A stretch of DNA of 43,824 nucleotides, from NCBI GenBank assembly GCA_964425575.1, contig CAYRMN010000006.1, positions 1,140 to 44,963 of the forward strand, in the 5' to 3' direction. Source of the stretch: an uncultured Gammaproteobacteria bacterium. GTDB lineage: Bacteria > Patescibacteriota > Patescibacteriia > 2-12-FULL-60-25. Positions within the stretch are counted from its first letter, which is position 1; each line of letters starts with the position of its first letter. The position numbers and the translations under genes were made by a program. This document shows positions 8,029-40,053 of the stretch, piece after piece. The notes beneath the pieces are model-generated. The model saw only the letters and a list, made by a program, of their open reading frames with translations, made no database searches and was not told the DNA's origin.

Positions 8029-8050
8029 GGATTTTTTCATCAGCTTTTTT

Positions 8051-8229: not shown

Positions 8230-8333
8230 TTTTATTCAGAATACCAGAGCCGTACCTTACACGTTTTGCAGGTAACCATGAGGAAATACTCGTTTTTTCA
8301 TGGGTGCCTGCAAAGGCAAAAAACCACCCGCCG

Positions 8334-8376
8334 CACGGACGGAATCCGTGTAAGACCCATAGCCCAGGAGGCTCTC
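8334..8376 (+). promoter_or_regulatory. conserved 5'-leader hairpin plus SD (copy 1)
   Basis: CACGGA-cggaa-TCCGTG, then TAAGACCC...GCCCAGGAGGC, then ATG. Same layout with compensatory stem changes at 9130-9180. Confidence 0.5.
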
Positions 8377-8961
8377 ATGAAGCGTTTCCCTCTCGTGTTC
8401 GTCCTCGGCCTCATCGCCTGTCTCTCCATCCTCGCCGGTTGCGCGGATGTTCTCCCGAACACCGCTGATCCCCAGGCTTTCGTCGAGGAGCGCTGTGCCG
8501 AGATGGCCGAGGGATACGGCGTGCGGGTCGACCTCTGGAACGATCCGACCGCCCTTTCAGAGGAGCAGCAGAAGAAGCTTCCGGAGTGGATGCCCGCCTC
8601 GATGACTGTCGAGGGTGCGGGTGTCGATCCCATCATCTGCGAACTGAACGAGAGTGGCACGTCGATCGTCTGCCCTCTCGATGTTCAGGAGGGCGACATC
8701 CGACAGCTCCGGCTGCGCGATCAGGACGAGTCCATCCCGTACGAGAAGTACTTCGGTTGGAACTGCCACCGCGGGACCAGTGATCAACCCGACGAGCGCT
8801 ACGGCCTCGGGATCTTGCAGATGCTCGCCTGCAGCGATGGGAAGCCGGTCGGCTTCATCGATAACTGCGGGGCGTCCAATCCCGCGCTCAAGGACCTTGG
8901 GGTCACCCCCGCGGTCAATGTCGTCACCCTCACAGTCGGGACGACTCCCCCCTCCAAGTAG
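8377..8961 (+). CDS. lipoprotein, Cys-rich, function unknown
   Basis: MKRFPLVFVLGLIACLSILAGC has a lipobox (LAGC). AGGAGG SD lies 6 nt upstream. Seven further Cys in the mature part. High G+C (39/60 at 8401-8460). Confidence 0.7.
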   Translation: MKRFPLVFVLGLIACLSILAGCADVLPNTADPQAFVEERCAEMAEGYGVRVDLWNDPTALSEEQQKKLPEWMPASMTVEGAGVDPIICELNESGTSIVCPLDVQEGDIRQLRLRDQDESIPYEKYFGWNCHRGTSDQPDERYGLGILQMLACSDGKPVGFIDNCGASNPALKDLGVTPAVNVVTLTVGTTPPSK

Positions 8962-9708: not shown

Positions 9709-9806
9709 TGTCGTCCTGAGCGAGTCTGCGAGTCGAAGGATCTTCTCCATGTCAGACAGAGTAGATCCTTCGACTGCGGTGTCGGACGCCTTCGCTCAGG
9801 ACGACA
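9709..9806. repeat. palindromic intergenic repeat, family A, copy 1
   Basis: Outer arms GTCGTCCTGAGCG/CGCTCAGGACGAC enclose inner arms AGTCGAAGGATC/GATCCTTCGACT. Related copies at 17349-17445, 20635-20718 and 30095-30191. Confidence 0.85.
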
Positions 9807-17348: not shown

Positions 17349-17445
17349 TGTCGTCCCGAGCAAAACGGAGTGACGTCGAGGGATCTCTAGAGAAAATGTT
17401 CCTTATAGGTCCTTCGACTACGCTCTCGCTCCGCTCAGGACGACG
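17349..17445. repeat. family A repeat, copy 2
   Basis: GTCGTCCCGAGCAAAACGGAGTGACGTCGAGGGATC...GGTCCTTCGACTACGCTCTCGCTCCGCTCAGGACGAC. Nearly identical to the copy at 30095-30191. Confidence 0.85.
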
Positions 17446-17468
17446 AAAGGTGGCTCAAGCAATCTGAT

Positions 17469-18180: not shown

Positions 18181-18307
18181 TTTTTGCCAAATCGCAAAAA
18201 GAAGCAAAAAAAGATTTTGGGGGCGGCTGACCTCGCTCAACGCGAAGGCTTTATCAGGTAGATCGCCTTCACTAGATCGCTCGAACAGGCAGGCGCCCCC
18301 AAACCCC
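18181..18307. repeat. palindromic intergenic repeat, family D, copy 1
   Basis: TTTTTGCCAAATCGCAAAA...GATTTTGGGGGCGGCTGACCTCGCTCAACGC, then a central hairpin, then CTAGATCGCTCGAACAGGCAGGCGCCCCCAAACCCC. Second copy at 39765-39885. Confidence 0.85.
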
Positions 18308-18377
18308 TTGAGGGTTGTTTATAAAAAGTCTGGTAGTTTGGTTGGCAAGCGCGGCCTAAGTAAGATATGCTGTTGTC

Positions 18378-19748: not shown

Positions 19749-20525
19749 AAAAAGACCGGCAGCTGGGGAGTCCCATGCTGCCGGCGCCACATCGTGGCAT
19801 TTTTTGTGCGAGGTCCGGGTTCCTGTAGGCGTAACAGGATAACCGGCGCGGAACAACGTAGCCCATCGGGCTTTCTACTGATTCAGGATGTGGCTCATCC
19901 CTAGCTCGTCGCCGCGGAGCATCTTTCCACAAAAGAGCGTGTTCGGATGTATGTTGGGATCGCAGCCACGCGATCTGGCCCACGCGATATCTGCTCGCGT
20001 CTTGCCTGAAGGATCAGAGGCAAAGACCTATCCGATTGGGGCATGTTCCCCACGGCCAAGTGGCCGTATGTATCTCGCGGGATCGTTCCTCCACCAAATG
20101 TGGAGCTTTCCGCGTTTTTCCTGAAGAAACACCGACCAGCTGAGTCTCCGTCCATCAATGATGGCACGTCCGGGCTAGACTCACTGCAACCCCGGGCTCT
20201 GTCTTCAAGCGGCCACTTGGGCCAGGTCCCTAGGCGAGGTTTCTCGCTTTCGGTCGAACGAACGTGGGCTAGAATCGACCGATCCGGTCGACGGGGGCAC
20301 GTGCCACCCCCTATGCCCTTGGGAAGATGCGTCCGGAGTCTATGTACTCCGCGAAGACGCTATACTCAGATGTGTTACAACCTTGGCAGGCCTTCCTGCC
20401 TTGGTAGCTACGGGAGAGTTCTCTGACCACCAGGCAAAGCGCCAAATGGCGGGGAACTTCGTACCCCCTCACTCTATCCGTTGTCCCTTAGATCGGTTCG
20501 GAGTAACTCCGCTTCGATCCTTGAC
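19747..20525 (-). ncRNA. candidate large (~780 nt) structured non-coding RNA, class unknown
   Basis: A perfect minus-strand promoter lies at 20532-20560. An intrinsic terminator (CCGGCAGC...GCTGCCGG plus a T-run) lies at the 3' end. No ORF exceeds 127 aa on either strand despite elevated G+C. Many 5-10 bp hairpins are present (see finding). TSS and 3' end are approximate. Confidence 0.55.
19755..19805. terminator. back-to-back hairpins forming a bidirectional terminator
   Basis: ACCGGCAGC...GCTGCCGG is preceded by AAAAAAA, which gives a T-run on the minus strand. The adjacent GCCAC-atc-GTGGC is followed by ATTTTTT on the plus strand, which terminates the 18378..19748 gene. Confidence 0.7.
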
Positions 20526-20531
20526 AACCCT

Positions 20532-20560
20532 ACTATACTACAGATCTCAGAATCTGTCAA
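20532..20560 (-). promoter_or_regulatory. consensus sigma70-type promoter driving the candidate ncRNA
   Basis: On the minus strand: TTGACA (complement of 20555-20560), 17-nt spacer, TATAGT (complement of 20532-20537). Embedded in the inverted repeat CCTTGACA...TGTCAAGG (20519-20562). Confidence 0.7.
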
Positions 20561-20634
20561 GGTGGGTTGTCTATGCATAAGTAAGCCAAATTTTACATAA
20601 GAACTCCCTCAATCTCGTAGGGAGAAGGTTGATT

Positions 20635-20718
20635 TGTCGTCCTGAGCTTGTCGAAGGATCTGCTCTGTCTCATGCGGAGAAGATCCTTCGATTTCGTCAG
20701 ACTCCACTCAGGACGACG
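20635..20718. repeat. family A repeat, copy 3 (shorter variant)
   Basis: GTCGTCCTGAGCTTGTCGAAGGATC...GATCCTTCGATTTCGTCAGACTCCACTCAGGACGAC. Confidence 0.8.
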
Positions 20719-20730
20719 GCGGAGGAAGCG

Positions 20731-21516
20731 TTATCCCGTCTCCGGTGCTGGTTCAGATACTCCCCACAAAAATTCAAATACGCTGTTTAGACTCTCGTAC
20801 ATGTCGGTGGAGGTGAGAACGACGGCAAATTGGCGTCCGAGACGGCCGTTCATGAAGGCGATTTTACCGTCATAGAGGTACATCAGCATGTTGAAATTGA
20901 TGGATGGAGGAACATAGCGAATATGCCGCAGAACGCTCATGCCGGACATGGAGATAAGGGGATTGAGTTTTTGTGTTTGTTGTTTTGAAATCTGAGGCCG
21001 AAGACTTTGGTGATACACGCCGGCCGCGATGCGACGCCGACTCCAATCGAGCATGAATGCCTCAGTAACACTCAATAGAAACTCATCATCATGGATCGAT
21101 CCGATAACGCGGTAGTTTTTTGTCGGGTTACGCAGAATTTCTTCCAACACAATTTTGAGTCCTTGGGCTTCGGGGAAAAAGCGGAACTTAGGAATCGCAG
21201 ACGTTTGGTGGGAGAGCGCGTCTTTTAGCAAGGGTAAGGCATGTTGGATGTCTTTGATCCGTTCCTCCATGAGTTTTTGCACCATCTCCGCATCGCAGGG
21301 TGAATACCGGGTTCGTCCTTCGCGAATACTCTCGGACAACAAGCCACGGGCAATTAAGGTTTCAAGATGACGATACACCGCCGTACGCGTCAGCTTGGCA
21401 CGTTTGGCAATATCCGCTGCTTTTGCATCTCCGAGCGTGACACAGGCGGCATAGATGTTGATTTCATCTTGCGTTAGTCCAAGATGGGAAAGGATGGCGA
21501 ATTGAGAGGGAGGCAT
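20731..21516 (-). CDS. TrmB-family transcriptional regulator
   Basis: N-terminal winged HTH LGLTQDEINIYAACVTLGDAKAADIAKRAKLTRTAVYRHLETLIARGLL, followed by a ~170-aa effector-type C-terminal domain. Divergent from the PPDK_N array. Confidence 0.8.
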   Translation of the reverse strand: MPPSQFAILSHLGLTQDEINIYAACVTLGDAKAADIAKRAKLTRTAVYRHLETLIARGLLSESIREGRTRYSPCDAEMVQKLMEERIKDIQHALPLLKDALSHQTSAIPKFRFFPEAQGLKIVLEEILRNPTKNYRVIGSIHDDEFLLSVTEAFMLDWSRRRIAAGVYHQSLRPQISKQQTQKLNPLISMSGMSVLRHIRYVPPSINFNMLMYLYDGKIAFMNGRLGRQFAVVLTSTDMYESLNSVFEFLWGVSEPAPETG

Positions 21517-21538
21517 AGAGAGTTGCTTGTATTTTCTC

Positions 21539-21627
21539 TGTCATTTCGACCGAGGAGTCCGACGACGAGCGGAGGAATCCCTTCGAAGGGGTCCCTCAGC
21601 TCCGTCAGACTTCGCTCGGGACGACAG
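21539..21627. repeat. family B repeat, copy 2
   Basis: Near-identical to 8051-8139. Lies inside the divergent regulatory region between the TrmB-like gene and the PPDK_N gene. Confidence 0.85.
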
Positions 21628-21730
21628 ATTGGGGATACATGGTCAGTTTGTGTGAAGTCTTATTCCCGTTGTCCACCCGTGACAACAGATAATTGAAGAA
21701 TAGCCCGTTAAACGCTATTCTACCGCGTAT

Positions 21731-22669
21731 ATGAACTATACGCGACCTTTTGCGGAGCTCTCAAAACAAGACGTGGGCATCGCGGGCGGAAAGGGTGCAT
21801 CGCTCGGTGAAATGACAAAGGCGGGAATTCCCGTTCCGCCGGGTTTTGTTGTACTTGCCCCTGCTTTTGATCGCTTTTTAGATGAGACGGATTTACGACA
21901 AGAAGTCGAGGCACAGCTTGGTCGCATCAATTATGAGGATGTCGCTTCAGTCGAACGAGCTTCAGAAGTGATCCGGTCACTCATCGAAAGCGCTTCTTTT
22001 CCGGTCGATCTTGAAAAAGAAGTACAGGCGTCGTTTCAGGAACTAGGAGCGGAGTATGTCGCTGTTCGTTCTTCCGCCACCGCCGAAGATTCTTCCGCTG
22101 CGAGTTGGGCTGGAGAACTGGAGAGTTATTTAAACACTCGTGAGCCAGAACTATGCGATCGCATCAAGCGTTGCTGGGCCTCGTTGTTTACGCCACGCGC
22201 CATTGTGTATCGCAAAGAAAAAGAGCTGCATACGACGCATGTATCCGTGGCCGTCGTGGTTCAAAAAATGGTGCAGTCGGAAGTGGCTGGTATCACCTTC
22301 ACCGTCCATCCGGTTACCAAGGACGCAAATCAAATGATCATCGAAGCCTGTTGGGGTTTGGGAGAGTTTATTGTTGGTGGAATCGTTACGCCCGATTCAT
22401 ATGTCGTTGATAAGCGTGACGGCACATTGATTGATGTGAATGTGGCTGAGCAACCAGAGAAGCTCGCGCGTGGCGCGGGAGAGAACGAGCGCGTATCTGT
22501 ACCGTCAGAAAAGATGAGCCAACAAAAGTTGGATGGTAAACAGATTCGCGAGATTGGAGATATCTGTGAGCGCATAGAAAAACATTACGGCTTCCCTTGC
22601 GATATCGAATGGGCGTTTGAACAGAATACGTTTTATATCGTGCAGAGTCGACCGATTACGACGCTGTAA
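21731..22669 (+). CDS. stand-alone PPDK_N-type ATP-grasp (nucleotide-binding) domain protein
   Basis: GIAGGKGASLGEM, VAVRSSATAEDS, WASLFTPRAIVYR, VAVVVQKMV and DIEWAF...YIVQSRPIT. This is the N-terminal domain of PpsA/PPDK/rifampin phosphotransferase with nothing fused to it. Confidence 0.88.
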   Translation: MNYTRPFAELSKQDVGIAGGKGASLGEMTKAGIPVPPGFVVLAPAFDRFLDETDLRQEVEAQLGRINYEDVASVERASEVIRSLIESASFPVDLEKEVQASFQELGAEYVAVRSSATAEDSSAASWAGELESYLNTREPELCDRIKRCWASLFTPRAIVYRKEKELHTTHVSVAVVVQKMVQSEVAGITFTVHPVTKDANQMIIEACWGLGEFIVGGIVTPDSYVVDKRDGTLIDVNVAEQPEKLARGAGENERVSVPSEKMSQQKLDGKQIREIGDICERIEKHYGFPCDIEWAFEQNTFYIVQSRPITTL

Positions 22670-22677
22670 CCAACCCT

Positions 22678-24159
22678 ATGGATAGGCTTGAAATTCAAAA
22701 ATACGTTGATACATATGCATGGTATTTGTTTGAGCAAATACCGCAGTGCCCTTTATGGTTTTGCTTATCTCCGCTGAGTGCGTATGTTCGTCGACTTGAT
22801 GAATCACACGGAGTCGGTCGTTTTCGTGGTTTTTACATTTTCCAAAACGGAGATTTGTACATGTTCAAGATGGCGGGAGAGCTAGAGCATGCGGGTGAAG
22901 TATTGATTGAGAGGGATGTGCAAGAGAAAGGATTTTTGCTTTCTGTGCTGCTTGAGATTGAACAACTGAGTAATGAGTTGACGAGAGGGTCTCGTGCACT
23001 GCAGGACATGGATATAGACAATACAGAGAATAAAAAGTTAGCTGCTGTTTTTCAGCAGGTATTTGAGATCCATGAAGATCTTTGGGTAAAAGGACAAGCT
23101 ATTAATTTATTGGAACATGGGTATTCCTTATTGGGAAAGATGCTAATGAAGCTTTTAAGGCAGGACGGAGTACCTGAGAAACATGTGATCGAGATTTCAG
23201 CTGTACTAACTACGCCGGAGCGTTACAGCAATCTCCAAAAAGAAGAACAAGACCTTCTTTCCCTTGTCGAGCAAGGCGCAACCGAGGATCGAATCACGCA
23301 GCATTGGAAAAAATGGGCGTGGCTTGGTTATAACTGGCTGGGACCTGCCTACGAGCGAGAACACTTTGTTACAAGAGCTCAGCTCTTGGAAAAGGACGAA
23401 ATACGAAAAGGGTTGATAAAGACTGAAGAGCGATATCGAGAAGACGTGCGGGCACGAAAACAAAAAGTAAAAACTGATTTTAGACTTTCCAATGAAACGA
23501 TGAGGATCGCCATTCTTATCGAAGAAATAATTTTTTGTAAGGCTGCACGTGTAGATGCATCTTGGCTCTTTTATTGGAGCGTTGAGGGTCTTTTTAAGAA
23601 AATCGCAGAGGAGTACGGGCTCTCCTATATACAGGTGCAATTTTTAAAACCAGATGAAATTATTGCTGCGTTGAATGGTGAATGCGTGGATGCAGATATA
23701 TTGAGAAAGCGGAAAAGATCTTACGCTATCTTATTCCGTGACGGAATCATTGAAGAATACTTCGATGAGATTGCGACATTAATTTTTACAACCATAGGGA
23801 AAACTCTGTCTATCGACTCTTCAGAGATGCAGGAGCTTAGAGGTGATGTTGGTTCACCAGGAATTGCAAATGGAATCGTCAAAATTGTGAATATGCCGGG
23901 TGATATCTCAAAAATGCAGGAGGGAAATATTTTGGTTTCTCACACGACAAACCCAAGTTTAGTTCCTGCGATGAAAATGGCCGGGGCTATCGTCGCAGAT
24001 GTAGGAGGTGTTACCAGCCACGCCGCGATCGTTGCGCGCGAACTCAAAAAGCCTTGCATCATCGGCACGAAGATAGCCACGAAGGTCCTCAAAGACGGTG
24101 ATGAAGTCGAAGTTGATGCGGAAAAGGGAGTGGTGAGAATCTTAAAACGAGCCTCGTAA
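22678..24159 (+). CDS. phosphohistidine swivel-domain protein, paralog 1 (long helical N-domain plus PEP-utilizers mobile domain)
   Basis: C-terminus GSPGIANGIVKIV...NILVSHTTNPSLVPAMKMAGAIVADVGGVTSHAAIVARELKKPCIIGTKIATKVLKDGDEVEVDAEKGVVRIL. The ~400-aa N-terminal region was not recognised. Confidence 0.85.
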   Translation: MDRLEIQKYVDTYAWYLFEQIPQCPLWFCLSPLSAYVRRLDESHGVGRFRGFYIFQNGDLYMFKMAGELEHAGEVLIERDVQEKGFLLSVLLEIEQLSNELTRGSRALQDMDIDNTENKKLAAVFQQVFEIHEDLWVKGQAINLLEHGYSLLGKMLMKLLRQDGVPEKHVIEISAVLTTPERYSNLQKEEQDLLSLVEQGATEDRITQHWKKWAWLGYNWLGPAYEREHFVTRAQLLEKDEIRKGLIKTEERYREDVRARKQKVKTDFRLSNETMRIAILIEEIIFCKAARVDASWLFYWSVEGLFKKIAEEYGLSYIQVQFLKPDEIIAALNGECVDADILRKRKRSYAILFRDGIIEEYFDEIATLIFTTIGKTLSIDSSEMQELRGDVGSPGIANGIVKIVNMPGDISKMQEGNILVSHTTNPSLVPAMKMAGAIVADVGGVTSHAAIVARELKKPCIIGTKIATKVLKDGDEVEVDAEKGVVRILKRAS

Positions 24160-24162
24160 ATT

Positions 24163-25269
24163 ATGACTTTTAAGATGAACCCAACGATCAAAGATTTTGA
24201 ATTGACCTTTGAGGGTCAAGGCATGCCATATATTTATGAACGCTTTTTGTATGCCTACTATCTTCCTGCGAAGTCGGTCTCGATTATTAAGAATGGGGTT
24301 GTTCAGGAATTCATGCACAAGGACACGCTTGAGGAGATGAATCAGGAAGGCCTGAGGCTTACTCCGAAAAAAGTTCAGGACTTGATAGAACAAATGGACC
24401 TAACTGTTCAAAAGAATAAAAAGGAGATGGAAGAGATTTTGAAAGAACCGTTAACCAAAGAGTCCCTTCAAAGAGCATTTCGCAATGTGGGAGAAGTAAC
24501 TAGGGCGTATTATTTTTTTGACCCACATTTTTTTGACGGAATTTTTGCCACATCACTTCACGATCCTCAGGCGGCAGAAGTCGTACGACTGGTTCAAGAA
24601 TATAAGAATGTGGCCCGGGAATATTTTAATCACGTTCATTTTGGAGAGACAGGAGATATTCCTCGTGTACTTTTGTGCCTGAGTCTCCAGACCGGCATCT
24701 CGTTCGAGGAATTACAAAACTATACGGAAGATGAGCTTGTTCTCATTATTGATAGCGTGAGGGTGCCGCAAGAGATTATCGCTGGCCGAAAGAGGTTGTA
24801 TGTTCCGTGGTGCGACGAATCTGGAAAACAGGTGGGGGAAATAGCCGGTCAGGAGGCGGAAGAATTTTGCCAACAGTTTTACGCGAGCAAAGAGGCGTTT
24901 GAAGGAGAGATATTGAAAGGAAAAACCGCCCACTCATCCCCATCTCTGGTACGCGGCATCGTGAAGTGCATCACACGAGACTACAACGATGTGAAGCGCA
25001 TGTACCGACAGATGGAGGAAATGAAGCAAGGGGATATTTTGGTCACACAAACGACAGATCCCGAAATGATGCTTGCACTTCGCAAGGCATCGGCAGCCAT
25101 TACAGATATCGGTGGTATGTTGTCGCATACGGCCATCACCGCCCGAGAACTCAATATCCCGTGCATTGTCGATACCAAATTTGCTACTCAACGTTTGCGA
25201 GATGGGGATGAAGTTGAAGTTGATACGGAGAAGGGGATCGTAAGGATTTTGAAGCGCGCGCAGAAGTGA
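24163..25269 (+). CDS. phosphohistidine swivel-domain protein, paralog 2 (most divergent)
   Basis: C-terminus DILVTQTTDPEMMLALRKASAAITDIGGMLSHTAITARELNIPCIVDTKFATQRLRDGDEVEVDTEKGIVRIL. Confidence 0.85.
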   Translation: MTFKMNPTIKDFELTFEGQGMPYIYERFLYAYYLPAKSVSIIKNGVVQEFMHKDTLEEMNQEGLRLTPKKVQDLIEQMDLTVQKNKKEMEEILKEPLTKESLQRAFRNVGEVTRAYYFFDPHFFDGIFATSLHDPQAAEVVRLVQEYKNVAREYFNHVHFGETGDIPRVLLCLSLQTGISFEELQNYTEDELVLIIDSVRVPQEIIAGRKRLYVPWCDESGKQVGEIAGQEAEEFCQQFYASKEAFEGEILKGKTAHSSPSLVRGIVKCITRDYNDVKRMYRQMEEMKQGDILVTQTTDPEMMLALRKASAAITDIGGMLSHTAITARELNIPCIVDTKFATQRLRDGDEVEVDTEKGIVRILKRAQK

Positions 25270-25285
25270 TTTGAATCCTTTGTCT

Positions 25286-26380
25286 ATGTCCTCAAAATAT
25301 AAAGGAGCGTTAAGAGAATATACGGTCGTAGGTATTTCGGCTGTGTTTCGGGCGATTATTTCGAAAGAATTTTCGGATTTCTTTGGTGGGAAAGGTTTAA
25401 GCAAGATTCTGTTTGTGGCTCGTGAAGATGGCTTCTGGCATTTTCAATCAGAGGAAGAAGTCTGTGGATTGGCGGATGCCTTTCTGTCCCGCGTAGAGCG
25501 GAAAGAACTCGATCTAGAAGCCGTATATCGTGATCTCGATGCGAGAGTAACGCGGCTTGAGAGTATTTATGCCAAGACGAAAGCAGACTACAACTTTGAT
25601 TTGATTCTAGGGTTTTATGAAGTCTACACTTCATTGATTCCATTCGCGTATGCCATTGCCTATAGCGGAGATAGATTAGAGGCCGTTACTCAGGATGCGG
25701 CCACACGGCAGGAGTACCTCAATTGGCTGACGAAGGCGCGTCTTCGGGCAGAGAATATTTATAAACAAGGTGAAATGTTTTTTATCCCGGCATACATGAC
25801 CTGGCTCTCAAAAAAATTATCTCGAGCCTATACCCCAGAACTTCTTCAATATCTCATGCATACGGAATTGGTTCATTTGGCGAAAAATGAAGGTGTTTTG
25901 CCTACAGTTGCTGAGTTACAAGCAAGAAAGACGCTGATGTATGCCAGCTTCTCATCTACAGGAGAAGAATATCTGACCGGGACAGCTGCCGCTCATCGTA
26001 TTCAAGAACTGGGATTATTTGAAGAAGGGAGTGTAGATACGCAAAATGTGACGCATTTCAAAGGTCAGACCGCGTATGGTGGCAGAGCAACGGGAAAAGT
26101 CCGATGTATCTTTAAGCGAGCAGATTTAGAAACGTTTGTAGAAGGTGAAATCATCGTCTCTCCCATGACTGATCCGAGCTATCTATCGGTGATGAAAAGA
26201 GCGAAGGCGTTTATTACCGATGAAGGCGGTATTTTGTGTCATGCCGCCATTGTGGCGCGTGAATTACAGAAGCCCTGCATTATCGGCACCAAAATCGCCA
26301 CCAAGGTCCTTAAAGATGGCGATGAAGTCGAAGTTGATGCGGAGAAAGGTATGGTCAGAATATTGAACAAAGCTTCGTAA
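25286..26380 (+). CDS. phosphohistidine swivel-domain protein, paralog 3
   Basis: C-terminus EIIVSPMTDPSYLSVMKRAKAFITDEGGILCHAAIVARELQKPCIIGTKIATKVLKDGDEVEVDAEKGMVRIL. ATG at 25286 chosen; a TTG at 25271 is an alternative start. Confidence 0.8.
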   Translation: MSSKYKGALREYTVVGISAVFRAIISKEFSDFFGGKGLSKILFVAREDGFWHFQSEEEVCGLADAFLSRVERKELDLEAVYRDLDARVTRLESIYAKTKADYNFDLILGFYEVYTSLIPFAYAIAYSGDRLEAVTQDAATRQEYLNWLTKARLRAENIYKQGEMFFIPAYMTWLSKKLSRAYTPELLQYLMHTELVHLAKNEGVLPTVAELQARKTLMYASFSSTGEEYLTGTAAAHRIQELGLFEEGSVDTQNVTHFKGQTAYGGRATGKVRCIFKRADLETFVEGEIIVSPMTDPSYLSVMKRAKAFITDEGGILCHAAIVARELQKPCIIGTKIATKVLKDGDEVEVDAEKGMVRILNKAS

Positions 26381-26525
26381 CATGGAGAAGATTGTATGGG
26401 AGAAATATATTGAAAGAAAACAGCCTTAGTTTGGGGCAGCGGCTTTTACTGAACCGTACGGCTCTCTTCTTTATGAGGCAACGGGTTTTGGTTTTCGTCA
26501 TCAGCTCTACATCTATCAGGCGGGA

Positions 26526-27467
26526 ATGTGTACCTGGTTTCATGATGAGCGGGAAGCGCGTTTCGCCGATCAGTATTTCTTAGATCTCGTCCTGAGGCAG
26601 GATCCACGGCTTTTAGAATGGAGAAGCGAGGGTGATAGATCTAATCTTCATGCTGATTATCTATTACATCAGTTTACGAAAGGCGAGCCCATTTTTGGAG
26701 CAGATCAATATAGAAAACTCGTGGTGGAATTTCAAAAAATTATGCTGTATGGAACGGTCATTCCATATCGGATTCCGTCCGCAATCAACAGTTTAGATGA
26801 AGAGAGACGCATGGAAGAGGCGGTGATCCAGGCACTGCATCTGTTTGAGCCTCTGCGTGCACAAACCCGTTATCCGCAACTTGTACAGAGTATTTTTCAA
26901 AAGTATTGGGAGTTTGCTTTTCAAGAATGCGGCCTCGACCCCTTGATGGGATCTTTGCTCACACCTCAGGAGTTCCAACAGTTTTTAGACGATCCCACGT
27001 CAGTAGATCGTTCCACTCTCTCTAAAAGAGAGGCATGGTGTTGCTTTTGGACCGACGGATTATCTTCAGACATTCACATTACCACGGACCGAGAAGCCAA
27101 GAGAGATTTTGAGATTCCGATCCTATGTATCGAAGCCTCCAATGAGTTACAGGGTCGAACTGTTTATCCGGGGAAGGTGCAAGGAAAGATTCAAATTGTG
27201 AATACAATCGAAGATATGCAGAAATGCTCGCCTGGCTGTATTGTCGTCTCCATCAACACTAGTCCATCAATCATGCCAGTTTTAAAACAATGTGCCGCTA
27301 TTATTACTGATGAAGGTGGCATCACCTGTCACGCCGCAATTGTATCCCGTGAACTTGGAAAACCCTGCATCATTGGTACGAAGATCGCTACCAAAGTTCT
27401 CAAAGATGGTGATAAAGTTGAAGTTGATGCGGAGAAGGGCATTGTGAGAATTTTGAAACGGAATTGA
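26526..27467 (+). CDS. phosphohistidine swivel-domain protein, paralog 4; the N-terminus is interrupted by an in-frame TAG (possibly truncated or a pseudogene)
   Basis: C-terminus CIVVSINTSPSIMPVLKQCAAIITDEGGITCHAAIVSRELGKPCIIGTKIATKVLKDGDKVEVDAEKGIVRIL. The same frame is open from the ATG at 26382 except for TAG at 26427-26429. Confidence 0.65.
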   Translation: MCTWFHDEREARFADQYFLDLVLRQDPRLLEWRSEGDRSNLHADYLLHQFTKGEPIFGADQYRKLVVEFQKIMLYGTVIPYRIPSAINSLDEERRMEEAVIQALHLFEPLRAQTRYPQLVQSIFQKYWEFAFQECGLDPLMGSLLTPQEFQQFLDDPTSVDRSTLSKREAWCCFWTDGLSSDIHITTDREAKRDFEIPILCIEASNELQGRTVYPGKVQGKIQIVNTIEDMQKCSPGCIVVSINTSPSIMPVLKQCAAIITDEGGITCHAAIVSRELGKPCIIGTKIATKVLKDGDKVEVDAEKGIVRILKRN

Positions 27468-27469
27468 AG

Positions 27470-27510
27470 AAGGCTCGCCCGGCGCAGTGCGCAACAGGCG
27501 AGCCTTTGGA
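27470..27510. terminator. convergent-gene hairpin
   Basis: AAGGCTCGCC...GGCGAGCCTT with the inner hairpin GCGCA-g-TGCGC. No clean T-run, so terminator function is uncertain. Confidence 0.4.
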
Positions 27511-27529
27511 GCGGAGTGAGAGCGTTGCT

Positions 27530-28096
27530 TCAGGCGAATTTCAAGAGATCGAGGGTGACGTCGCCCTCATCGCCGAAGAAGAGATCGAAGCCGTCGCCCT
27601 CTTTCAGGGTGACCGTGAGAATTCGTGGATCATGGCAGCCAAGTGCTCGAGCCACGGCGGCGATCAGGGTCGGGTGTCCAACCACGATAGAACTCCAAGC
27701 CCCTTCTCTTTCGATTATTTCTCGAATTCGTGCAGCAGCCGTGTCGGCGCACGTTCTCAAGACCATTCTAGCCGTGCTGCCGCACTCAAAGTACGAACTG
27801 AGTTCGAGGTTTTTGAGTCTGTGACAGAGCGCATCGAGTTCATCTCGTTCTTGCGTGAGAAGCGTCGGATAGAGCTCCATTACCTCAATGTGCTGTGCTT
27901 GCGGAGCGAGGATGTTGATCGCGTGTACATCGCACGGAGCGGCGGCAGATAGTGCGAGCCCGAATGTTGCCGGGTGATGATTCTTGTGCCGCATCATGTG
28001 CGCCGCATCTCTGGAAGTCGGTTCGATATCCTCGCGTATCTCGGCAGACCAGGATGGTCCGGCGCACACGAATCGAATCAAGCATCTTACCGTCAT
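27530..28096 (-). CDS. hypothetical protein; weak by-eye resemblance to the histidine-phosphatase (PGAM/SixA) fold
   Basis: Start at MTVRCLIRF (ATG at 28096) with AGGAGAG 7 nt upstream. VVGHPTLIAAVARALG resembles the C-terminal His motif of that fold, but the N-terminal RHG motif reads RFV. Elevated G+C. Confidence 0.45.
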   Translation of the reverse strand: MTVRCLIRFVCAGPSWSAEIREDIEPTSRDAAHMMRHKNHHPATFGLALSAAAPCDVHAINILAPQAQHIEVMELYPTLLTQERDELDALCHRLKNLELSSYFECGSTARMVLRTCADTAAARIREIIEREGAWSSIVVGHPTLIAAVARALGCHDPRILTVTLKEGDGFDLFFGDEGDVTLDLLKFA

Positions 28097-28183
28097 CGCG
28101 TCTCTCCTGAAGTTTGTGTCGCCAAAAAAGATCAGCGAGCTGCTGATTGATATCACACATTGGCCCGAATGTCGATATTTGGC

Positions 28184-30094: not shown

Positions 30095-30191
30095 TGTCGT
30101 CCGGAGCAAAACGGAGTGACGTCGAGGGATCTATTAAGAAATGTTTCCTTATAGATCCTTCGACTACGCTGTCGCTCCGCTCAGGACGACA
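30095..30191. repeat. family A repeat, copy 4
   Basis: Nearly identical to the copy at 17349-17445. Confidence 0.85.
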
Positions 30192-30244
30192 AATATGCGG
30201 ACAACTAGAACGCTTTGTTGCGCATATGCTAAACTTCTCTGACT

Positions 30245-31258
30245 ATGGCTGAGCAGTTATTTGAACGGAGAAATGTATTGGTAACGGGTGGGGCGGGCTT
30301 TATTGGATCGCATTTATGCGATCAGCTCGTTCAGAAAGGGGCGAACGTGATTTGTGTTGATAATTTTATCACCAGTTCAGTGGGGAACATCGATCATCTG
30401 TTGCGCGATCCTCACTTTGAATTCATCAACCATGACATCACGCAGCCGCTCGACCTCCTAGCCTATCCTGAACTCGAACAGTTTAAAGTACGTTTTCAGG
30501 GTATTCAGGAGATTTACCATCTCGCTTGTCCAATTTCAAAACGACACTTTGATGATTTTAAAATCGCGACTGTTCTGACGAATTCGATTGGCGTTAAAAA
30601 TGTCCTTGATATTGCGGTGGCACAACGAGCAAAGGTGCTATATGCCTCATCGAGCGTATTATATGGACCACATCAGGCCGACCAGCGGCATGTTAAAGAA
30701 ACGGATGAATGCCACCTAAACCACTTAACCACACGTGGTGCCTATGATGAAGGCAAGCGGTTTTCCGAAGCGATCTTGCAAACCTATGCGGACGTCTACG
30801 GTATTGATATTAAGATTGCTCGCATTTTTCGGACCTATGGTCCACGCATGAAGATTTTTGATGGCAACTTGATTCCGGATATGGTCCTCTCTGCGCTTGA
30901 AGGGAAGGATATCGTTTTGACGGGTGACGAAGAAACTCGTGTTTCGCTTGCGTATGTAAGTGATATTGTAGATGGCATGCTGCGGCTCATGTCTACTCCG
31001 ATCGATGTGACGCTGGTGAATCTTGGTTCTGATGTGGAAGTGCGGCTCGTTTCTGTAGCCCAAAAAGTGTTACAGATTACGGGATCAGAATCACGGGTAC
31101 GTTTTGAGCCTCCGCAAGGTACGCCAATCGAGCCAAACCTTCCTGATATTACCCGGGTGCGTGAAATTCTTGGTTGGTTGCCCTTAGTCCGTCTCGACGA
31201 TGGTCTGAAAAAAATGATCGATTACGCCAACTCACATCGTCACCTTATCTCCTTTTAA
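30245..31258 (+). CDS. NAD-dependent sugar-nucleotide SDR, UDP-glucuronate decarboxylase (UXS)-like, paralog 1
   Basis: VLVTGGAGFIGSHLCDQL Rossmann motif. YDEGKRFSE catalytic YxxxK in the UXS-like context. IARIFRTYGPRM. Confidence 0.85.
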   Translation: MAEQLFERRNVLVTGGAGFIGSHLCDQLVQKGANVICVDNFITSSVGNIDHLLRDPHFEFINHDITQPLDLLAYPELEQFKVRFQGIQEIYHLACPISKRHFDDFKIATVLTNSIGVKNVLDIAVAQRAKVLYASSSVLYGPHQADQRHVKETDECHLNHLTTRGAYDEGKRFSEAILQTYADVYGIDIKIARIFRTYGPRMKIFDGNLIPDMVLSALEGKDIVLTGDEETRVSLAYVSDIVDGMLRLMSTPIDVTLVNLGSDVEVRLVSVAQKVLQITGSESRVRFEPPQGTPIEPNLPDITRVREILGWLPLVRLDDGLKKMIDYANSHRHLISF

Positions 31259-31262: not shown

Positions 31263-32279
31263 ATGCCTACTCCTTTGTTCGATAAGAAGAACGTGCTTGT
31301 GACCGGCGGAGCTGGATTTATCGGATCGTTTTTGTGCGAAAAATTGCTGGCAGACTCACGCGTCATTTGCGTTGATAATTTTTTGACCTCACAGGAGTCA
31401 AATATTGATTCATTGCTCAAGAATCCTGATTTTGAATTTATTCGCCAAGATGTAAATGCTCCATTTGATTTGGAATCATTTCCAGAGTTGGCGCGTTTTA
31501 AGCTTAAATTTCAGGGGATACAGGAAATATACCATTTAGCATGTCCCATGAGCGCGAAGAAGTTTGATCAATACCAAATGCAGACGCTGTATTCCAATTC
31601 GATTGGCATGAAGAACATTCTTGACCTGTCCGTTCGCTATAAGGCGAAGGTCGTGCACGCCTCAACCTCCGTTGTCTACGGGGCGAGGCCAGTCGACGGA
31701 CACTCATTTACAGAGGCGGATTTTGGTGCCGTTGATATGCTATCTCCTCGTGCATGCTATGACGAAGGGAAACGTTTTGCAGAAACCTGTTGCTCTACCT
31801 ATGCTCGCGTACATGGACTTGATATTCGTATCGCTCGCATGTTCCGTACCTATGGTCCGCGTATGCCGCTGTATGATGGTCAAATGATTCCAGACTTTAT
31901 CACTGATGCCTTGGATAATAAGGATTTGGTGATTTTTGGTGATGAAAGTTTTAAGACATCGTTTGCATACGTGAGCGATATTGTTGATGGTCTTATCAAG
32001 TGTATGAATGCCCCGGCAGGTCTTGGGCCTATCAATCTGGGCAGTGATTTGGATGTTTCGTTGGTAGATGTGGCGCAGCGTATTATTGAGATGACCGGTT
32101 CAACATCGCGTATCACGTTTCAGCCGCGACTCCTGTTTATGACTGAACTTGGACTACCAGACCTAACGAATGTGAAAGAAAAACTCGGCTGGCTGCCACT
32201 TGTTGGTTTGGATGATGGTCTGAAGAAAACGATTGATTACACCGTAGCGCACAAGGGTCTATTGAAATTCAGGGTGTAG
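31263..32279 (+). CDS. NAD-dependent sugar-nucleotide SDR, UXS-like, paralog 2
   Basis: VLVTGGAGFIGSFLCEKL, YDEGKRFAE, IARMFRTYGPRM. Colinear with paralog 1 over the full length. Confidence 0.85.
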   Translation: MPTPLFDKKNVLVTGGAGFIGSFLCEKLLADSRVICVDNFLTSQESNIDSLLKNPDFEFIRQDVNAPFDLESFPELARFKLKFQGIQEIYHLACPMSAKKFDQYQMQTLYSNSIGMKNILDLSVRYKAKVVHASTSVVYGARPVDGHSFTEADFGAVDMLSPRACYDEGKRFAETCCSTYARVHGLDIRIARMFRTYGPRMPLYDGQMIPDFITDALDNKDLVIFGDESFKTSFAYVSDIVDGLIKCMNAPAGLGPINLGSDLDVSLVDVAQRIIEMTGSTSRITFQPRLLFMTELGLPDLTNVKEKLGWLPLVGLDDGLKKTIDYTVAHKGLLKFRV

Positions 32280-38361: not shown

Positions 38362-38430
38362 ATCAAATACAGAAGTAATGGTAGCACAAAATGTGTGGTA
38401 TGAATTGCCTGATTGCGTTATTATCTGCAC

Positions 38431-39764: not shown

Positions 39765-39885
39765 TTTTTGCCAAATCGCAAAAGTACCAAAAAAGATTTT
39801 GGGGGCGGCTGACCTCGCTCAACGCTTCGACCAGCTGAAGCTGGTCATCGCTAGATCGCTCGAACAGGCAGGTGCCCCCAAACCC
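39765..39885. repeat. family D repeat, copy 2
   Basis: Same flanks as 18181-18307, but the central hairpin is replaced by GACCAGC-tgaa-GCTGGTC. Confidence 0.85.
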
Positions 39886-40053
39886 CATGGGAAAAATCCG
39901 TGTAGGGGCAGACTTGTATGTCTGCCTTTTGTGTTTGTTTGATGTATCCGATCCTCACGTTCCATCCGGTGATGGGAAGTAAGGGAGGGAAGGGAGCAGC
40001 GAGGGGATAGGTGCTGCTCCCGAAGAGGGGTGTCCCGCCGGGAGGGCGGGAGA

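What the first reader, a model, noticed from the sequence alone, without database searches (positions are those of the whole stretch)
20731..27467. Split rifampin-phosphotransferase/PPDK-like system: one ATP-grasp subunit followed by four diverged phosphohistidine-swivel paralogs
A stand-alone PPDK_N ATP-grasp protein (21731-22669) is followed, with gaps of 1-8 nt before three of the four paralogs, by four paralogs at 22678, 24163, 25286 and 26526. Each paralog ends in a PEP-utilizers mobile (swivel) domain that keeps the catalytic His (TSHAAI, LSHTAI, LCHAAI, TCHAAI). No PEP/pyruvate-binding TIM-barrel domain is present, so this is not a PEP synthase or PPDK. In known enzymes, PPDK_N plus a substrate-binding domain plus a C-terminal swivel domain is the architecture of rifampin phosphotransferase (RPH). 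Here that architecture is split into separate polypeptides, and the substrate-side subunit is present in four copies. The N-domains of the four have diverged strongly in length and sequence. The last ~30 residues (KPCIIGTKIATKVLKDGDEVEVDAEKG.VRIL) are almost identical in three of them while their codons differ at many third positions. That pattern indicates purifying selection rather than recent gene conversion. One reading is that a single kinase module charges several alternative His-carrier/substrate-recognition modules, giving a multi-specificity small-molecule phosphotransferase. A divergent TrmB-family regulator (20731-21516) probably controls the array.
Basis: partly seen in the sequence, partly recalled or inferred. 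Interest (0 to 1): 0.75.

Follow-up and report, generated by a model that had tools for sequence, protein, structure and literature searches.

The report
One ATP-grasp kinase, many phospho-His carriers
This is a rifampin-phosphotransferase-like kinase split into one ATP-binding subunit and four different phosphate-carrier/substrate subunits, a one-to-many layout that also occurs as arrays of up to 12 genes and as giant fused proteins in ultra-small CPR bacteria and DPANN archaea, and that I could not find described.

Summary
A stand-alone PPDK_N ATP-grasp gene (21731-22669) is followed by four tightly packed genes, each ending in a PEP-utilizers swivel domain with the catalytic His. No TIM-barrel partner is present in the window.

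- **Correction:** the fourth gene really starts at 26382, one base after the third. It carries an in-frame TAG at codon 16, so it is a pseudogene or makes a truncated product.
- **Fold:** AlphaFold models of paralog 1 (long type) and paralog 4 (short type) both match rifampin phosphotransferase (RPH) best, beyond the swivel domain. Profile comparison links all four N-domains. An invariant Lys aligns with catalytic Arg666 of RPH.
- **Already known:** the split itself is not new. HpeHI, CreHI and PpsAB are characterised two-component RPH-like dikinases.
- **Apparently undescribed:** the 1:n layout. I found arrays of 4-12 carrier genes with at most one ATP-grasp gene per locus. I also found natural fusions of one ATP-grasp domain with 2, 3, 4 or 8 carrier modules (up to 3,761 aa).
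- **Conserved tail:** it reflects family-wide purifying selection, not gene conversion.
- **TrmB-like regulator:** control of the array rests on adjacency only.
- **Substrates:** unknown.

Verdict: a new variant of a known kind, of moderately high interest.

The parts
20731..21516 (-). TrmB-like winged-helix regulator (261 aa), transcribed divergently from the array. No C-terminal sugar-binding domain was detected.
   Evidence: Pfam PF01978, 48 bits, residues 9-77 only. NCBIfam TrmB/TrmBL1 models score far below their cutoffs. It is not conserved next to related arrays.
21533..21627 (.). 95-nt palindromic intergenic repeat lying inside the 214-nt spacer between the regulator gene and the ATP-grasp gene.
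   Evidence: 93% identical to 8045-8139, with an internal inverted repeat (families D4/I2).
21731..22669 (+). Stand-alone ATP-grasp (PPDK_N) subunit, 312 aa. It is the proposed ATP-dependent charging module.
   Evidence: PF01326 E 1e-100 over 17-311. It aligns end to end with the RPH-Lm ATP-grasp domain (E 1e-56) and keeps the counterparts of Lys22, Arg117, Thr136 (as Ser) and Glu297. It is the only PPDK_N ORF in the window.
22678..24159 (+). Paralog 1 (493 aa): long-type RPH-like substrate domain (about 1-385) plus a C-terminal swivel domain. Catalytic His448 is at 24019-24021. The invariant K288/R291 pair is at 23539-23550.
   Evidence: AF2 model pLDDT 93.7. Foldseek top hits are RPH-Lm 5fbu/5fbt/5hv1, E 5e-13, about 570-584 alignment columns (gaps included) spanning nearly the full length of P1. 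K288 aligns with RPH Arg666. Orthologues in L001 (48%) and L003 (38%).
24163..25269 (+). Paralog 2 (368 aa): short-type N-domain plus swivel domain. Catalytic His322 is at 25126-25128.
   Evidence: PF00391 E 9e-25. hhalign to the P1 family gives 94% over the C-terminal 78 columns. Conserved K148/R152, E189/E191 and R209-K210. Only 3 relatives found in 5.8 billion proteins.
25286..26380 (+). Paralog 3 (364 aa from ATG 25286; an alternative TTG start lies at 25271): short-type N-domain plus swivel domain. The catalytic His codon is at 26240-26242.
   Evidence: PF00391 E 2e-25. hhalign to the P4 family gives 96.5% over 186 columns. The orthologue in L009 sits in a fused-G + 3-carrier array. Only 3 relatives found.
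26382..27467 (+). Paralog 4: full-length frame of 361 codons, interrupted by an in-frame TAG at 26427-26429. The remaining ORF 26526-27467 encodes 313 aa. Short-type N-domain plus swivel domain. The catalytic His codon is at 27330-27332.
   Evidence: tblastn of family members aligns across the stop. 62 family representatives, mostly about 340-370 aa. AF2 model of the 313-aa product has pLDDT 91.7. Foldseek top hit is RPH-Lm, E 3e-11, 269 columns. hhalign to the P1 family gives 97.5% over 231 columns.

Best explanation
The locus encodes a multiplexed two-component dikinase of the RPH / HpeHI mechanistic type.

**Proposed mechanism**
1. The 312-aa ATP-grasp subunit binds ATP.
2. The C-terminal swivel domain of a carrier subunit docks on it. 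Its catalytic His is pyrophosphorylated and then left as phospho-His, with AMP and Pi as by-products.
3. The swivel domain swings back onto its own helical N-domain. There a conserved basic site (K288/R291 in paralog 1, aligned with RPH Arg666/Lys670) positions the phosphate for transfer to a bound acceptor.

Because the kinase half is a separate protein, one copy serves three or four carrier subunits. Their N-domains are ancient, strongly diverged paralogs (one long type, three short types) that most likely bind different acceptors.

**Shown here**
- Domain content, RPH-like folds and retained catalytic residues.
- Absence of a TIM barrel.
- Recurrence of 1:n arrays and of 1:n fusion proteins.

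**Inferred**
- Charging in trans.
- Dikinase chemistry.
- Small-molecule acceptors with distinct specificities.

**Unknown:** the acceptors and the physiological role. Scavenging or detoxifying compounds from the host or the environment is my guess. Paralog 4 is currently broken by a stop codon.
For: - **Domains:**
- **ATP-site residues conserved against RPH-Lm:**, with residue roles taken from PMC4844700.
- **Folds:** the P1 and P4 models are confident and RPH-Lm is the best PDB match for both, extending beyond the swivel domain.
- **Sequence link to RPH:** the P1-family profile aligns to RPH 590-866, placing invariant K288 on Arg666 and R291 next to Lys670. The same basic-helix / Glu / Arg pattern is kept in the P2, P3 and P4 families.
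- **N-domain homology:** hhalign 94-97.5%.
- **Natural fusions:** one ATP-grasp domain plus n carrier modules, each with a His motif. L025 has n=8 (3,761 aa), L024 n=4, L051 n=3 followed by 4 carrier genes, L043 and L016 n=2, and L009 n=1 followed by 3 carrier genes.
- **Stoichiometry:** never more than one ATP-grasp gene per locus, against up to 12 carrier genes.
- **Ancient paralogs:** they are orthologous across genomes, so they have been kept as distinct types.
- **Biochemical precedent:** a separate ATP-grasp protein charges an RPH-like His-subunit in HpeHI (PMC12167813).
Against: - There is no biochemical data for any member of this clade.
- Six of 13 loci with three or more carrier genes or modules show no ATP-grasp gene (stand-alone or fused) in the DNA fetched (L005, L011, L021, L022, L026, L027). 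In a seventh, L032, the multi-module ORF runs off the contig start. Single carrier genes also occur without one nearby (L006, L008). The partner may lie elsewhere, or may not always be needed.
- HpeH alone can exchange phosphate between substrates.
- On its own, the N-domain profile does not reach RPH by sequence. The Arg666 alignment is anchored by the swivel domain, and Glu667 of RPH is not conserved.
- P2 and P3 were not modelled. The direct P1-P3 profile link is weak (41.8%).
- Paralog 4 carries a premature stop.
- Gene neighbourhoods are not conserved and give no clue to the substrate.
Confidence: 0.58

Rival explanations
1. The carriers phosphorylate macromolecules or act as regulators rather than modifying small molecules. 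Examples would be protein or cell-envelope glycan targets, as in the PPDK-derived regulatory kinase VadK of M. tuberculosis or the plant glucan, water dikinases.
For: VadK is a PPDK-derived His-autophosphorylating kinase with a regulatory role. The array lies beside a polysaccharide/cell-envelope cluster: sugar transferase, GtrA, two epimerases and glycosyltransferases. No substrate is known.
Against: The N-domains have the RPH substrate-domain fold, with the phosphate-site basic residues retained. No carbohydrate-binding or protein-interaction domains were detected. The envelope-gene neighbourhood is not conserved in other loci.
Confidence: 0.13
2. The modules are PigC/RedH-like ATP-dependent ligases. 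Phosphoryl transfer would activate a substrate for condensation, so the array would be a biosynthetic toolkit and not a set of modifying kinases.
For: PigC/RedH share the ATP-grasp / central domain / C-terminal swivel layout. The swivel regions score as well against the PigC/RedH models as against RPH. HapC literature.
Against: All scores are far below the family cutoffs and cover only the ATP-grasp or swivel parts. No pyrrole or secondary-metabolite genes are nearby. CPR genomes generally lack such pathways (my own knowledge).
Confidence: 0.07
3. The carriers work without the ATP-grasp subunit, as phosphate-exchange enzymes between phosphorylated and unphosphorylated metabolites. The neighbouring ATP-grasp gene would serve only one of them.
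For: HpeH alone transfers phosphate from 4-phosphoacetophenone to acetovanillone. Several arrays and single genes have no ATP-grasp gene in the fetched flanks.
Against: Fusion proteins physically tie one ATP-grasp domain to 2-8 carriers. The exchange rate of HpeH alone was very low (2.7 nmol/min/mg). Tight operon spacing in the window.
Confidence: 0.08
4. The array is a birth-and-death family with little current function. The extra copies would be redundant or decaying duplicates.
For: Paralog 4 carries a premature stop. The P2 and P3 types have only three detectable relatives each. Carrier genes have lower GC (0.43-0.45) than the ATP-grasp gene (0.50) and the flanks. In L003 the array is interrupted by KilA-N, Bro-N and toxin-antitoxin genes.
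Against: Catalytic His and N-domain motifs are intact in all four. Synonymous differences accompany conserved protein sequence. Paralog types are orthologous across distant genomes. Arrays persist in genomes of about 1 Mb or less.
Confidence: 0.1
5. It is an ordinary PEP synthase broken into pieces, with the PEP/pyruvate TIM-barrel domain encoded elsewhere.
For: The ATP-grasp and swivel parts score best against PEP synthase models and structures. Relatives are annotated 'pyruvate, water dikinase' in NCBI.
Against: No TIM-barrel hit in the window or in any of 40 carrier-only loci. The swivel domain is C-terminal and preceded by an RPH-like domain, not followed by a barrel. Four different carriers make no sense for a single PpsA.
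Confidence: 0.03

Closest known systems
Two-component small-molecule dikinases HpeHI, CreHI and PpsAB (phenylphosphate synthase)
   Same: They have a separate ATP-grasp subunit plus a His-subunit made of an RPH-like substrate domain and a C-terminal swivel domain, with no TIM barrel. The mechanism uses ATP with a phospho-His intermediate (PMC12167813).
   Different: - The known systems are described as one ATP-grasp with one His-subunit. Here the ratio is 1:4, and elsewhere up to 1:12 or fused 1:8.
- The His-subunits here are 360-490 aa, against about 610 aa (HpeH is 71 kDa).
- Their N-domains do not match the PRK08296 family, where only the swivel region aligns.
- The hosts are CPR/DPANN symbionts, not aromatic-compound degraders.
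- No carboxylase or catabolic genes are nearby.
Rifampin phosphotransferase (RPH-Lm; PDB 5FBS/5FBT/5FBU/5HV1)
   Same: It is the best structural match for both modelled carriers. The ATP-grasp residues are conserved. A basic residue is aligned with catalytic Arg666. The overall domain logic is the same: ATP-grasp, substrate domain, C-terminal swivel.
   Different: RPH is a single polypeptide of about 865 aa. Sequence identity here is only 13-20%. Scores against the RPH NCBIfam models are 42-62 bits for the carriers and 189-276 bits for the ATP-grasp subunit, against cutoffs of 999-1700. Glu667 is not conserved. The short-type N-domains lack roughly the central third of the domain. Nothing indicates that rifamycins are the substrate.
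PEP synthase / pyruvate phosphate dikinase
   Same: These are the closest sequence relatives of the ATP-grasp and swivel parts. They share the swivelling phospho-His mechanism.
   Different: There is no PEP/pyruvate TIM-barrel domain. In these enzymes the swivel domain is central, whereas here it is C-terminal.
Prodigiosin ligases PigC / RedH / HapC
   Same: The three-part layout is the same as in RPH, and the swivel and ATP-grasp scores are comparable.
   Different: They are single polypeptides that catalyse a condensation reaction in a pigment pathway. No such pathway is present here.
PTS Enzyme I feeding many sugar-specific Enzyme II branches (functional analogy only)
   Same: One general phosphoryl-donor enzyme supplies many substrate-specific modules through phospho-His carriers, and the swivel domain is homologous to that of EI.
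   Different: The phosphoryl donor here is presumably ATP, not PEP. There are no HPr, EII or transport components, and the substrate domain sits on the carrier itself.

Membership tests
Two-component RPH-like dikinases (HpeHI/CreHI/PpsAB type) | ATP-grasp (PPDK_N) domain on its own polypeptide | tested here: met
   21731-22669 is PPDK_N only, 312 aa.
Two-component RPH-like dikinases (HpeHI/CreHI/PpsAB type) | His-subunit made of an RPH-like substrate-binding domain plus a C-terminal swivel domain with the catalytic His | tested here: met
   The P1 and P4 models match RPH beyond the swivel domain. P2 and P3 are linked by profile comparison only. His motifs are present in all four.
Two-component RPH-like dikinases (HpeHI/CreHI/PpsAB type) | No PEP/pyruvate TIM-barrel domain | tested here: met
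Two-component RPH-like dikinases (HpeHI/CreHI/PpsAB type) | Sequence membership of the His-subunit in the phenolic-kinase clade (about 45% identity among HpeH/CreH/PpsA; NCBIfam PRK08296 models) | tested here: not met
   PRK08296 sub-models score 42-100 bits against cutoffs of 578-730, and they align only to the last 81-132 residues.
Two-component RPH-like dikinases (HpeHI/CreHI/PpsAB type) | One ATP-grasp subunit paired with one His-subunit | tested here: not met
   One ATP-grasp gene and four carrier genes in the window. Ratios reach 1:n with n up to 8-12 elsewhere.
Two-component RPH-like dikinases (HpeHI/CreHI/PpsAB type) | Dikinase reaction (ATP to AMP + Pi + phosphorylated acceptor) that depends on both components | not testable with these tools
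   This needs enzyme assays.
Rifampin phosphotransferase (RPH) | Single polypeptide that reaches the curated NCBIfam score (NF041857 / NF000283) | tested here: not met
   The proteins are separate. Against NF041857 (cutoff 999) the ATP-grasp scores 276 bits and the carriers 54-62 bits; against NF000283 (cutoff 1700) they score 189 bits and 37-44 bits.
Rifampin phosphotransferase (RPH) | Catalytic Arg666-Glu667 (and Lys670) in the substrate domain | tested here: inconclusive
   Invariant K288 aligns with Arg666 and R291 lies next to Lys670, but Ala stands at the Glu667 position. The alignment is anchored by the swivel domain.
Rifampin phosphotransferase (RPH) | Rifamycin-binding cleft residues and rifampin inactivation | not tested
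   No residue-level structural superposition or assay was possible.
PEP synthase / PPDK | C-terminal PEP/pyruvate-binding TIM barrel (PEP-utilizers_C) | tested here: not met
TrmB family sugar-sensing regulators | N-terminal TrmB winged-helix DNA-binding domain | tested here: met
   PF01978, 48 bits, above the cutoff of 25.6.
TrmB family sugar-sensing regulators | C-terminal effector (sugar)-binding domain and full-length equivalog score | tested here: not met
   Only residues 9-93 match TrmBL1, at 32 bits against a cutoff of 650. No C-terminal domain hit was found.

The most novel reading that the evidence does not exclude
CPR bacteria and DPANN archaea carry a previously unrecognised modular 'hub-and-spoke' phosphorylation system. 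A single ATP-grasp charging enzyme services a changeable set of up to a dozen substrate-specific phospho-His carrier enzymes, encoded as arrays or as giant polyproteins. This would give genome-reduced symbionts a cheap, expandable way to phosphorylate (trap, activate or detoxify) many different compounds from the host or the environment, a soluble ATP-driven counterpart of the PTS logic.
Probability: 0.35. Interest if true: 0.8.

Novelty: new variant of a known kind. Interest (0 to 1): 0.62.

Why it matters
- **Annotation.** At least one of these genes is labelled 'pyruvate, water dikinase' in a public record (P0004); other named relatives are labelled 'PEP-utilizing enzyme'. A CPR resistome survey also reports rph (rifampin phosphotransferase) genes in CPR genomes, though I did not check whether they belong to this family. 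A 'pyruvate, water dikinase' label misleads metabolic reconstruction for CPR/DPANN organisms, because it wrongly suggests gluconeogenesis, and an RPH label would be untested.
- **Enzymology.** A one-to-many dikinase would extend the recently defined two-component dikinase subfamily from dedicated 1:1 catabolic enzymes to a modular system. It raises a clear question: how does one ATP-grasp domain recognise many swivel domains, and what sets the specificity of each carrier?
- **Biology.** Arrays of 4-12 such genes take up about 1% or more of genomes near 1 Mb, so the function is probably important for the episymbiotic lifestyle.
- **Testability.** The system is small and soluble and can be tested directly in vitro.

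Tried and rejected
1. **Fusion to UDP-GlcNAc 2-epimerase (PF02350).** Precomputed Pfam lists suggested this for some relatives. On rescanning, the hits fall below the cutoff and mostly overlap or adjoin the swivel domain. The 700-860 aa relatives carry two swivel domains and look like tandem double carriers.
2. **Anti-phage defence.** PADLOC gives no hit for any dikinase gene. Viral contigs and BFVD structures match only the swivel domain.
3. **Concerted evolution or gene conversion of swivel domains within a genome.** Rejected for the domain as a whole: 84 of 92 nearest neighbours lie in another locus. Within the tail the signal is only weak and inconsistent, with mean identity 0.69 to orthologues and 0.65 to same-locus paralogs.
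4. **Sequence search of the N-domain alone against the PDB.** No RPH hit. The homology needs structure comparison or a swivel-anchored alignment.
5. **Conserved regulator.** The TrmB-like protein recurs near only one other locus.
6. **Promoter and terminator scan of 20.5-28.3 kb.** Counts are not above shuffled expectation.
7. **Downstream ORFs as accessory subunits.** 27464-27952(+) and 27530-28156(-) have no Pfam hit. They show no relation to the HD-type or His-phosphatase-like genes found next to other arrays.
8. **RNA genes.** Rfam and tRNA scans of the window found nothing.
9. **Literature.** Searches for CPR/DPANN dikinase arrays or multi-swivel proteins found nothing relevant.

Full report
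**1. What is in the sequence**

On the plus strand, a 312-aa ORF (21731-22669) is followed by ORFs of 493 aa (22678-24159), 368 aa (24163-25269), 369/364 aa (25271 or 25286-26380) and 313 aa (26526-27467). A 261-aa ORF lies divergently at 20731-21516.

Pfam assigns the first ORF to PPDK_N alone (E 1e-100). Each of the four followers gets only the PEP-utilizers mobile domain, at its extreme C-terminus (E about 1e-25). The divergent ORF has a TrmB-type HTH. NCBIfam agrees. Every PEP synthase, PPDK, RPH or PigC/RedH model is hit far below its cutoff, and only in the ATP-grasp or swivel part.

The catalytic His motifs are GGVTSHAA, GGMLSHTA, GGILCHAA and GGITCHAA. Direct-repeat detection picks up the four swivel-coding 3' ends independently, at 65-72% nucleotide identity (families D1/D2).

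**2. Correction for the fourth paralog**

A full HMMER scan with its N-terminal 205 residues found 62 family representatives. Most are about 340-370 aa, and in these the match starts near residue 55. tblastn with those N-termini aligns straight across the supposed 145-nt gap. The frame opens at ATG 26382, one base after the stop of paralog 3, and contains a single in-frame TAG at 26427-26429. Most of the relatives compared have Leu at that position, so one TTG>TAG change explains it.

Paralog 4 is therefore a 361-codon gene with a premature stop. It could be a recent pseudogene, a sequencing error, or a gene expressed as a 313-aa truncated protein. With this correction all four genes are tightly packed, with gaps of 8, 3, 16 (or 1) and 1 nt.

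**3. The codon claim**

In the last 35 codons, paralogs 1, 3 and 4 share 30-32 residues. Sixteen of these identical residues use different codons, and nucleotide identity is 77-81%.

The tail (KPCIIGTKIATKVLKDGDxVEVDA...) is conserved across the whole clade in other genomes, and archaeal PEP synthases have a similar segment. It is the conserved core of PpsA-type swivel domains and not a special feature of this array.

I tested for concerted evolution with 123 modules from the window and the related loci.
- The nearest relative of a swivel domain lies in another locus in 84 of 92 cases. For the window's paralogs 1-3 it is the same protein that is the nearest relative of the N-domain.
- In the first 60 swivel residues, identity is 0.55 to the orthologue and 0.34 to same-locus paralogs.
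- In the tail, the figures are 0.69 and 0.65.

The carriers are therefore ancient paralogs inherited as whole units. Any genome-specific homogenisation of the tail is weak.

**4. Not a PEP synthase**

No PEP-utilizers_C domain appears in Pfam scans of the window's larger ORFs. An HMM I built from 35 PpsA C-terminal domains hit none of the window's ORFs of 80 aa or more, and none of the 40 carrier-only loci. It did recover the bona fide PpsA loci.

**5. What the N-domains are**

They show no BLASTP similarity to each other.

*Paralog 1.* It has many full-length relatives of about 480-510 aa, mainly labelled Patescibacteria/Parcubacteria. An AlphaFold2 model built on 50 of them is confident (pLDDT 93.7, pTM 0.89). 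Its best PDB matches are the Listeria rifampin phosphotransferase structures (E 5e-13, TM about 0.5 normalised to the query). These alignments span nearly the full length of P1 (about 570-584 alignment columns, gaps included). All other hits cover only the swivel domain. I attribute the modest TM-score and large rmsd to the mobile swivel domain sitting in a different place (inference).

The family profile also aligns by sequence to RPH-Lm 590-866 (E 9e-29). In that alignment the family's invariant K288 falls on Arg666 and invariant R291 next to Lys670. Arg666 and Glu667 contact the transferred phosphate, and their Ala substitutions abolish rifampin inactivation (PMC4844700).

Two caveats apply. 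The N-domain profile alone does not reach RPH, so the alignment is anchored by the swivel domain. Glu667 is also not conserved.

*Short paralogs.* hhalign gives the following:

| Pair | Probability | Columns |
|---|---|---|
| P1 family vs P4 family | 97.5% | 231 (spanning P1 residues 11-368) |
| P3 vs P4 | 96.5% | 186 |
| P1 vs P2 | 94% | 78 (C-terminal) |
| P2 vs P4 | 86.7% | 92 |
| P2 vs P3 | 74.8% | 98 |
| P1 vs P3 | 41.8% | 66 |

The short types match the long-type HMM in two collinear pieces, about positions 40-125 and 300-380. This suggests the same fold with the central helical part shortened. Across 111 modules the N-domain length is bimodal, at about 200-280 and about 320-440 residues.

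An AlphaFold2 model of the 313-aa paralog 4 product is confident (pLDDT 91.7). It also matches RPH best (E 3e-11, 269 columns, well beyond the roughly 110-residue swivel domain).

All four families keep a collinear pattern of a basic helix motif ([K]-x2-3-R, reduced to the Arg alone in P4), a Glu, and an Arg-[K/R] position. The mapping between families rests on spacing and on the profile alignments.

**6. The ATP-grasp subunit**

It aligns end to end with the RPH-Lm ATP-grasp domain (E 1e-56), and even better with PEP synthase ATP-grasp domains. The counterparts of RPH Lys22, Arg117, Thr136 (Ser here) and Glu297 are present (roles). By sequence it looks catalytically competent.

**7. The split is already known**

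The characterised two-component dikinases are:
- HpeHI, which acts on hydroxyphenylethanones.
- CreHI, which acts on 4-methylphenol.
- PpsAB, which is phenylphosphate synthase.

In these, a separate ATP-grasp protein works with a His-subunit that combines the RPH substrate and swivel domains. HpeI has a crystal structure, the His581 mutant is dead, and AMP is the product (PMC12167813). The window's carriers do not belong to that clade by sequence, because the PRK08296 models align only to the swivel region. The mechanism has direct precedent all the same.

**8. What appears to be new: the one-to-many layout**

Neighbourhoods of relatives, and a scan of one genome per species classified with my own HMMs, gave these loci:

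| Locus | Organism label | Layout |
|---|---|---|
| L001 | Parcubacteria | 4 carriers + 1 ATP-grasp |
| L003 | Patescibacteria | 6 carriers + 1 ATP-grasp, interrupted by KilA-N, Bro-N and PhD/ParE genes |
| L005 | 1.19 Mb contig | 10 carrier genes, one of them a double |
| L011 | Nealsonbacteria | 12 carrier ORFs |
| L021 | Woesearchaeota | 7 carriers |
| L022 | Falkowbacteria | 5-7 carriers |
| L027 | Uhrbacteria | 6 carriers |
| L030 | Buchananbacteria | 5 carriers + 1 ATP-grasp |
| L026 | Nanoarchaeia | 4 carriers |
| L009 | unnamed metagenome contig | fused ATP-grasp-carrier (841 aa as called) followed by 3 carrier genes |
| L051 | Patescibacteria | 1,399-aa protein with ATP-grasp + 3 modules, followed by 4 carrier genes |
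| L043, L016 | archaeon; Moraniibacteriota | ATP-grasp + 2 modules |
| L024 | uncultured bacterium | ATP-grasp + 4 modules (1,994 aa) |
| L025 | Woesearchaeota | ATP-grasp + 8 modules (3,761 aa, confirmed with the ORF tool) |
| L032 | archaeon | at least 8 modules (ORF of 2,937 aa or more, running off the contig) |

No locus has more than one ATP-grasp gene.

These fusions are Rosetta-stone evidence that one ATP-grasp domain works with several carrier modules. Arrays in which a fused ATP-grasp-carrier is followed by carrier-only genes imply charging in trans.

Against a strict rule, six of 13 loci with three or more carrier genes or modules show no ATP-grasp gene, stand-alone or fused, within the DNA fetched. 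Some of these arrays run to the edge of that DNA. Single carrier genes also occur without one nearby (L006, L008).

The distribution is striking. The family is labelled almost entirely as CPR bacteria or DPANN archaea. A few odd bin labels exist that I would not trust.

Literature searches found no description of such arrays or multi-swivel proteins. The only related item was 'rph-like' counts in a CPR resistome survey.

**9. Function**

Neighbourhoods are not conserved. In the window the array lies between translation/tRNA genes and a cell-envelope polysaccharide cluster. Elsewhere it lies next to pentose-phosphate genes, Mur ligases or unrelated genes.

Two small genes recur beside or inside arrays in other genomes:
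- An HD-domain protein of about 200 aa in L005, L011, L016 and L022, with a weaker match in L043. Only the L011 copy reaches Pfam's HD cutoff; L005 scores below it and the other copies are linked by homology to these.
- A protein of about 270 aa with an 'RH' motif and sub-threshold similarity to histidine phosphatases, in L009, L028 and L044.

Neither is detectable in the window. They hint at phosphate removal from products or from the carrier His, but this is speculation.

PADLOC and the viral searches give no support for a defence role.

My best account is a multiplexed RPH/HpeHI-type dikinase whose carriers have different small-molecule acceptors. The rivals are macromolecular or regulatory targets (VadK precedent), PigC-like ligase chemistry, ATP-grasp-independent phosphate exchange, and partial decay of the array.

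**10. Regulator**

The TrmB-like protein has only the N-terminal HTH. It recurs near just one related locus. The 214-nt divergent spacer contains a 95-nt palindromic repeat that is 93% identical to a copy at 8045-8139. Regulation of the array by this protein is possible but rests on adjacency only.

**11. Verdict**

The split itself is already known, while the 1:n arrays and polyproteins in CPR/DPANN look undescribed. Substrates and physiological role are unknown. I rate it a new variant of a known kind, with interest 0.62.

Noticed in passing
window 19749-20730: This is a convergent intergenic stretch of about 980 nt with no ORF that has a Pfam hit. Its GC is 0.556, against about 0.50 in the flanks. 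It has no Rfam, tRNA or tmRNA match. It folds far better than shuffled controls (z = -7.7 on the plus strand, -6.5 on the minus strand). It could be a large structured RNA of unknown class or a decayed element. No similar sequence occurs in the loci fetched up to that point (L001-L089), apart from the terminal hairpin repeat.
   Followed up: partly
window 8045-8139 / 21533-21627; 17349-17447 / 30095-30193; 9732-9778 / 20650-20696; 18181-18310 / 39765-39889: The window carries several families of intergenic repeats, some palindromic, with copies 76-100% identical. Those at 8045/21533 and 17349/30095 are 95-99 nt with GTCGTCC...GGACGAC-like ends and look REP/MITE-like. One copy sits in the spacer between the TrmB-like gene and the ATP-grasp gene. 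Another forms the terminal hairpin of the structured region above.
   Followed up: partly
window 26427-26429: Paralog 4 has an in-frame TAG at codon 16, where most relatives compared have Leu. Public gene calls start the protein at the internal ATG 26526. It may be a nonsense mutation or a sequencing error, and I cannot tell which without the reads.
   Followed up: yes
window 21731-27467: The four carrier genes have GC 0.43-0.45. The ATP-grasp gene has 0.50 and the flanks 0.49-0.51. The cause could be different origin or age, or simply amino-acid composition.
   Followed up: no
L025 473-11758; L024 6938-12922; L032 1-8814; L051 2734-6933: These are giant natural fusion proteins. One ATP-grasp domain is followed by 8, 4 or 3 carrier modules (3,761, 1,994 and 1,399 aa). 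L032 has an ORF of at least 2,937 aa with 8 swivel domains that runs off the contig.
   Followed up: yes
L005 11494-12075; L011 11376-11981; L016 4316-4918; L022 14618-15222; L009 7123-7941; L028 1117-1911; L044 6896-8554: Two small accessory genes recur inside or next to arrays in other genomes. One is a protein of about 200 aa related to HD-domain proteins; only the L011 copy reaches Pfam's HD cutoff (L005 is below it; the other copies are linked by homology to these). The other is a protein of about 270 aa with an RH motif and sub-threshold His_Phos_1 similarity. They may be phosphatases acting on products or on the phospho-His. Neither was found in the window.
   Followed up: partly
L003 11627-13114 and 15167-16021: One array is interrupted by KilA-N, Bro-N and PhD/ParE toxin-antitoxin genes. 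This suggests that mobile elements have inserted into the array.
   Followed up: no
window 30245-31258 and 31263-32279: Two adjacent NAD-dependent epimerase/dehydratase paralogs (72-74% nucleotide identity in places) sit in a cell-envelope sugar cluster. The cluster also holds a sugar transferase, GtrA, a GT2 and two GT4 genes, downstream of the array.
   Followed up: no
protein P0004 (L001 10001-11482) and other relatives: In NCBI, P0004 (a carrier-only relative) is named 'pyruvate, water dikinase'; other named relatives are called 'PEP-utilizing enzyme'. The first name is wrong for a protein that lacks both the ATP-grasp and the TIM-barrel domains. It could distort metabolic reconstructions of CPR genomes.
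   Followed up: partly
window 49-1584, 1743-2879, 6496-8028, 8176-8961, 36220-38430, 40054-41610: Several large ORFs (261-736 aa) have no Pfam family at E <= 0.001. Some lie in GC-rich segments (0.55-0.58).
   Followed up: no
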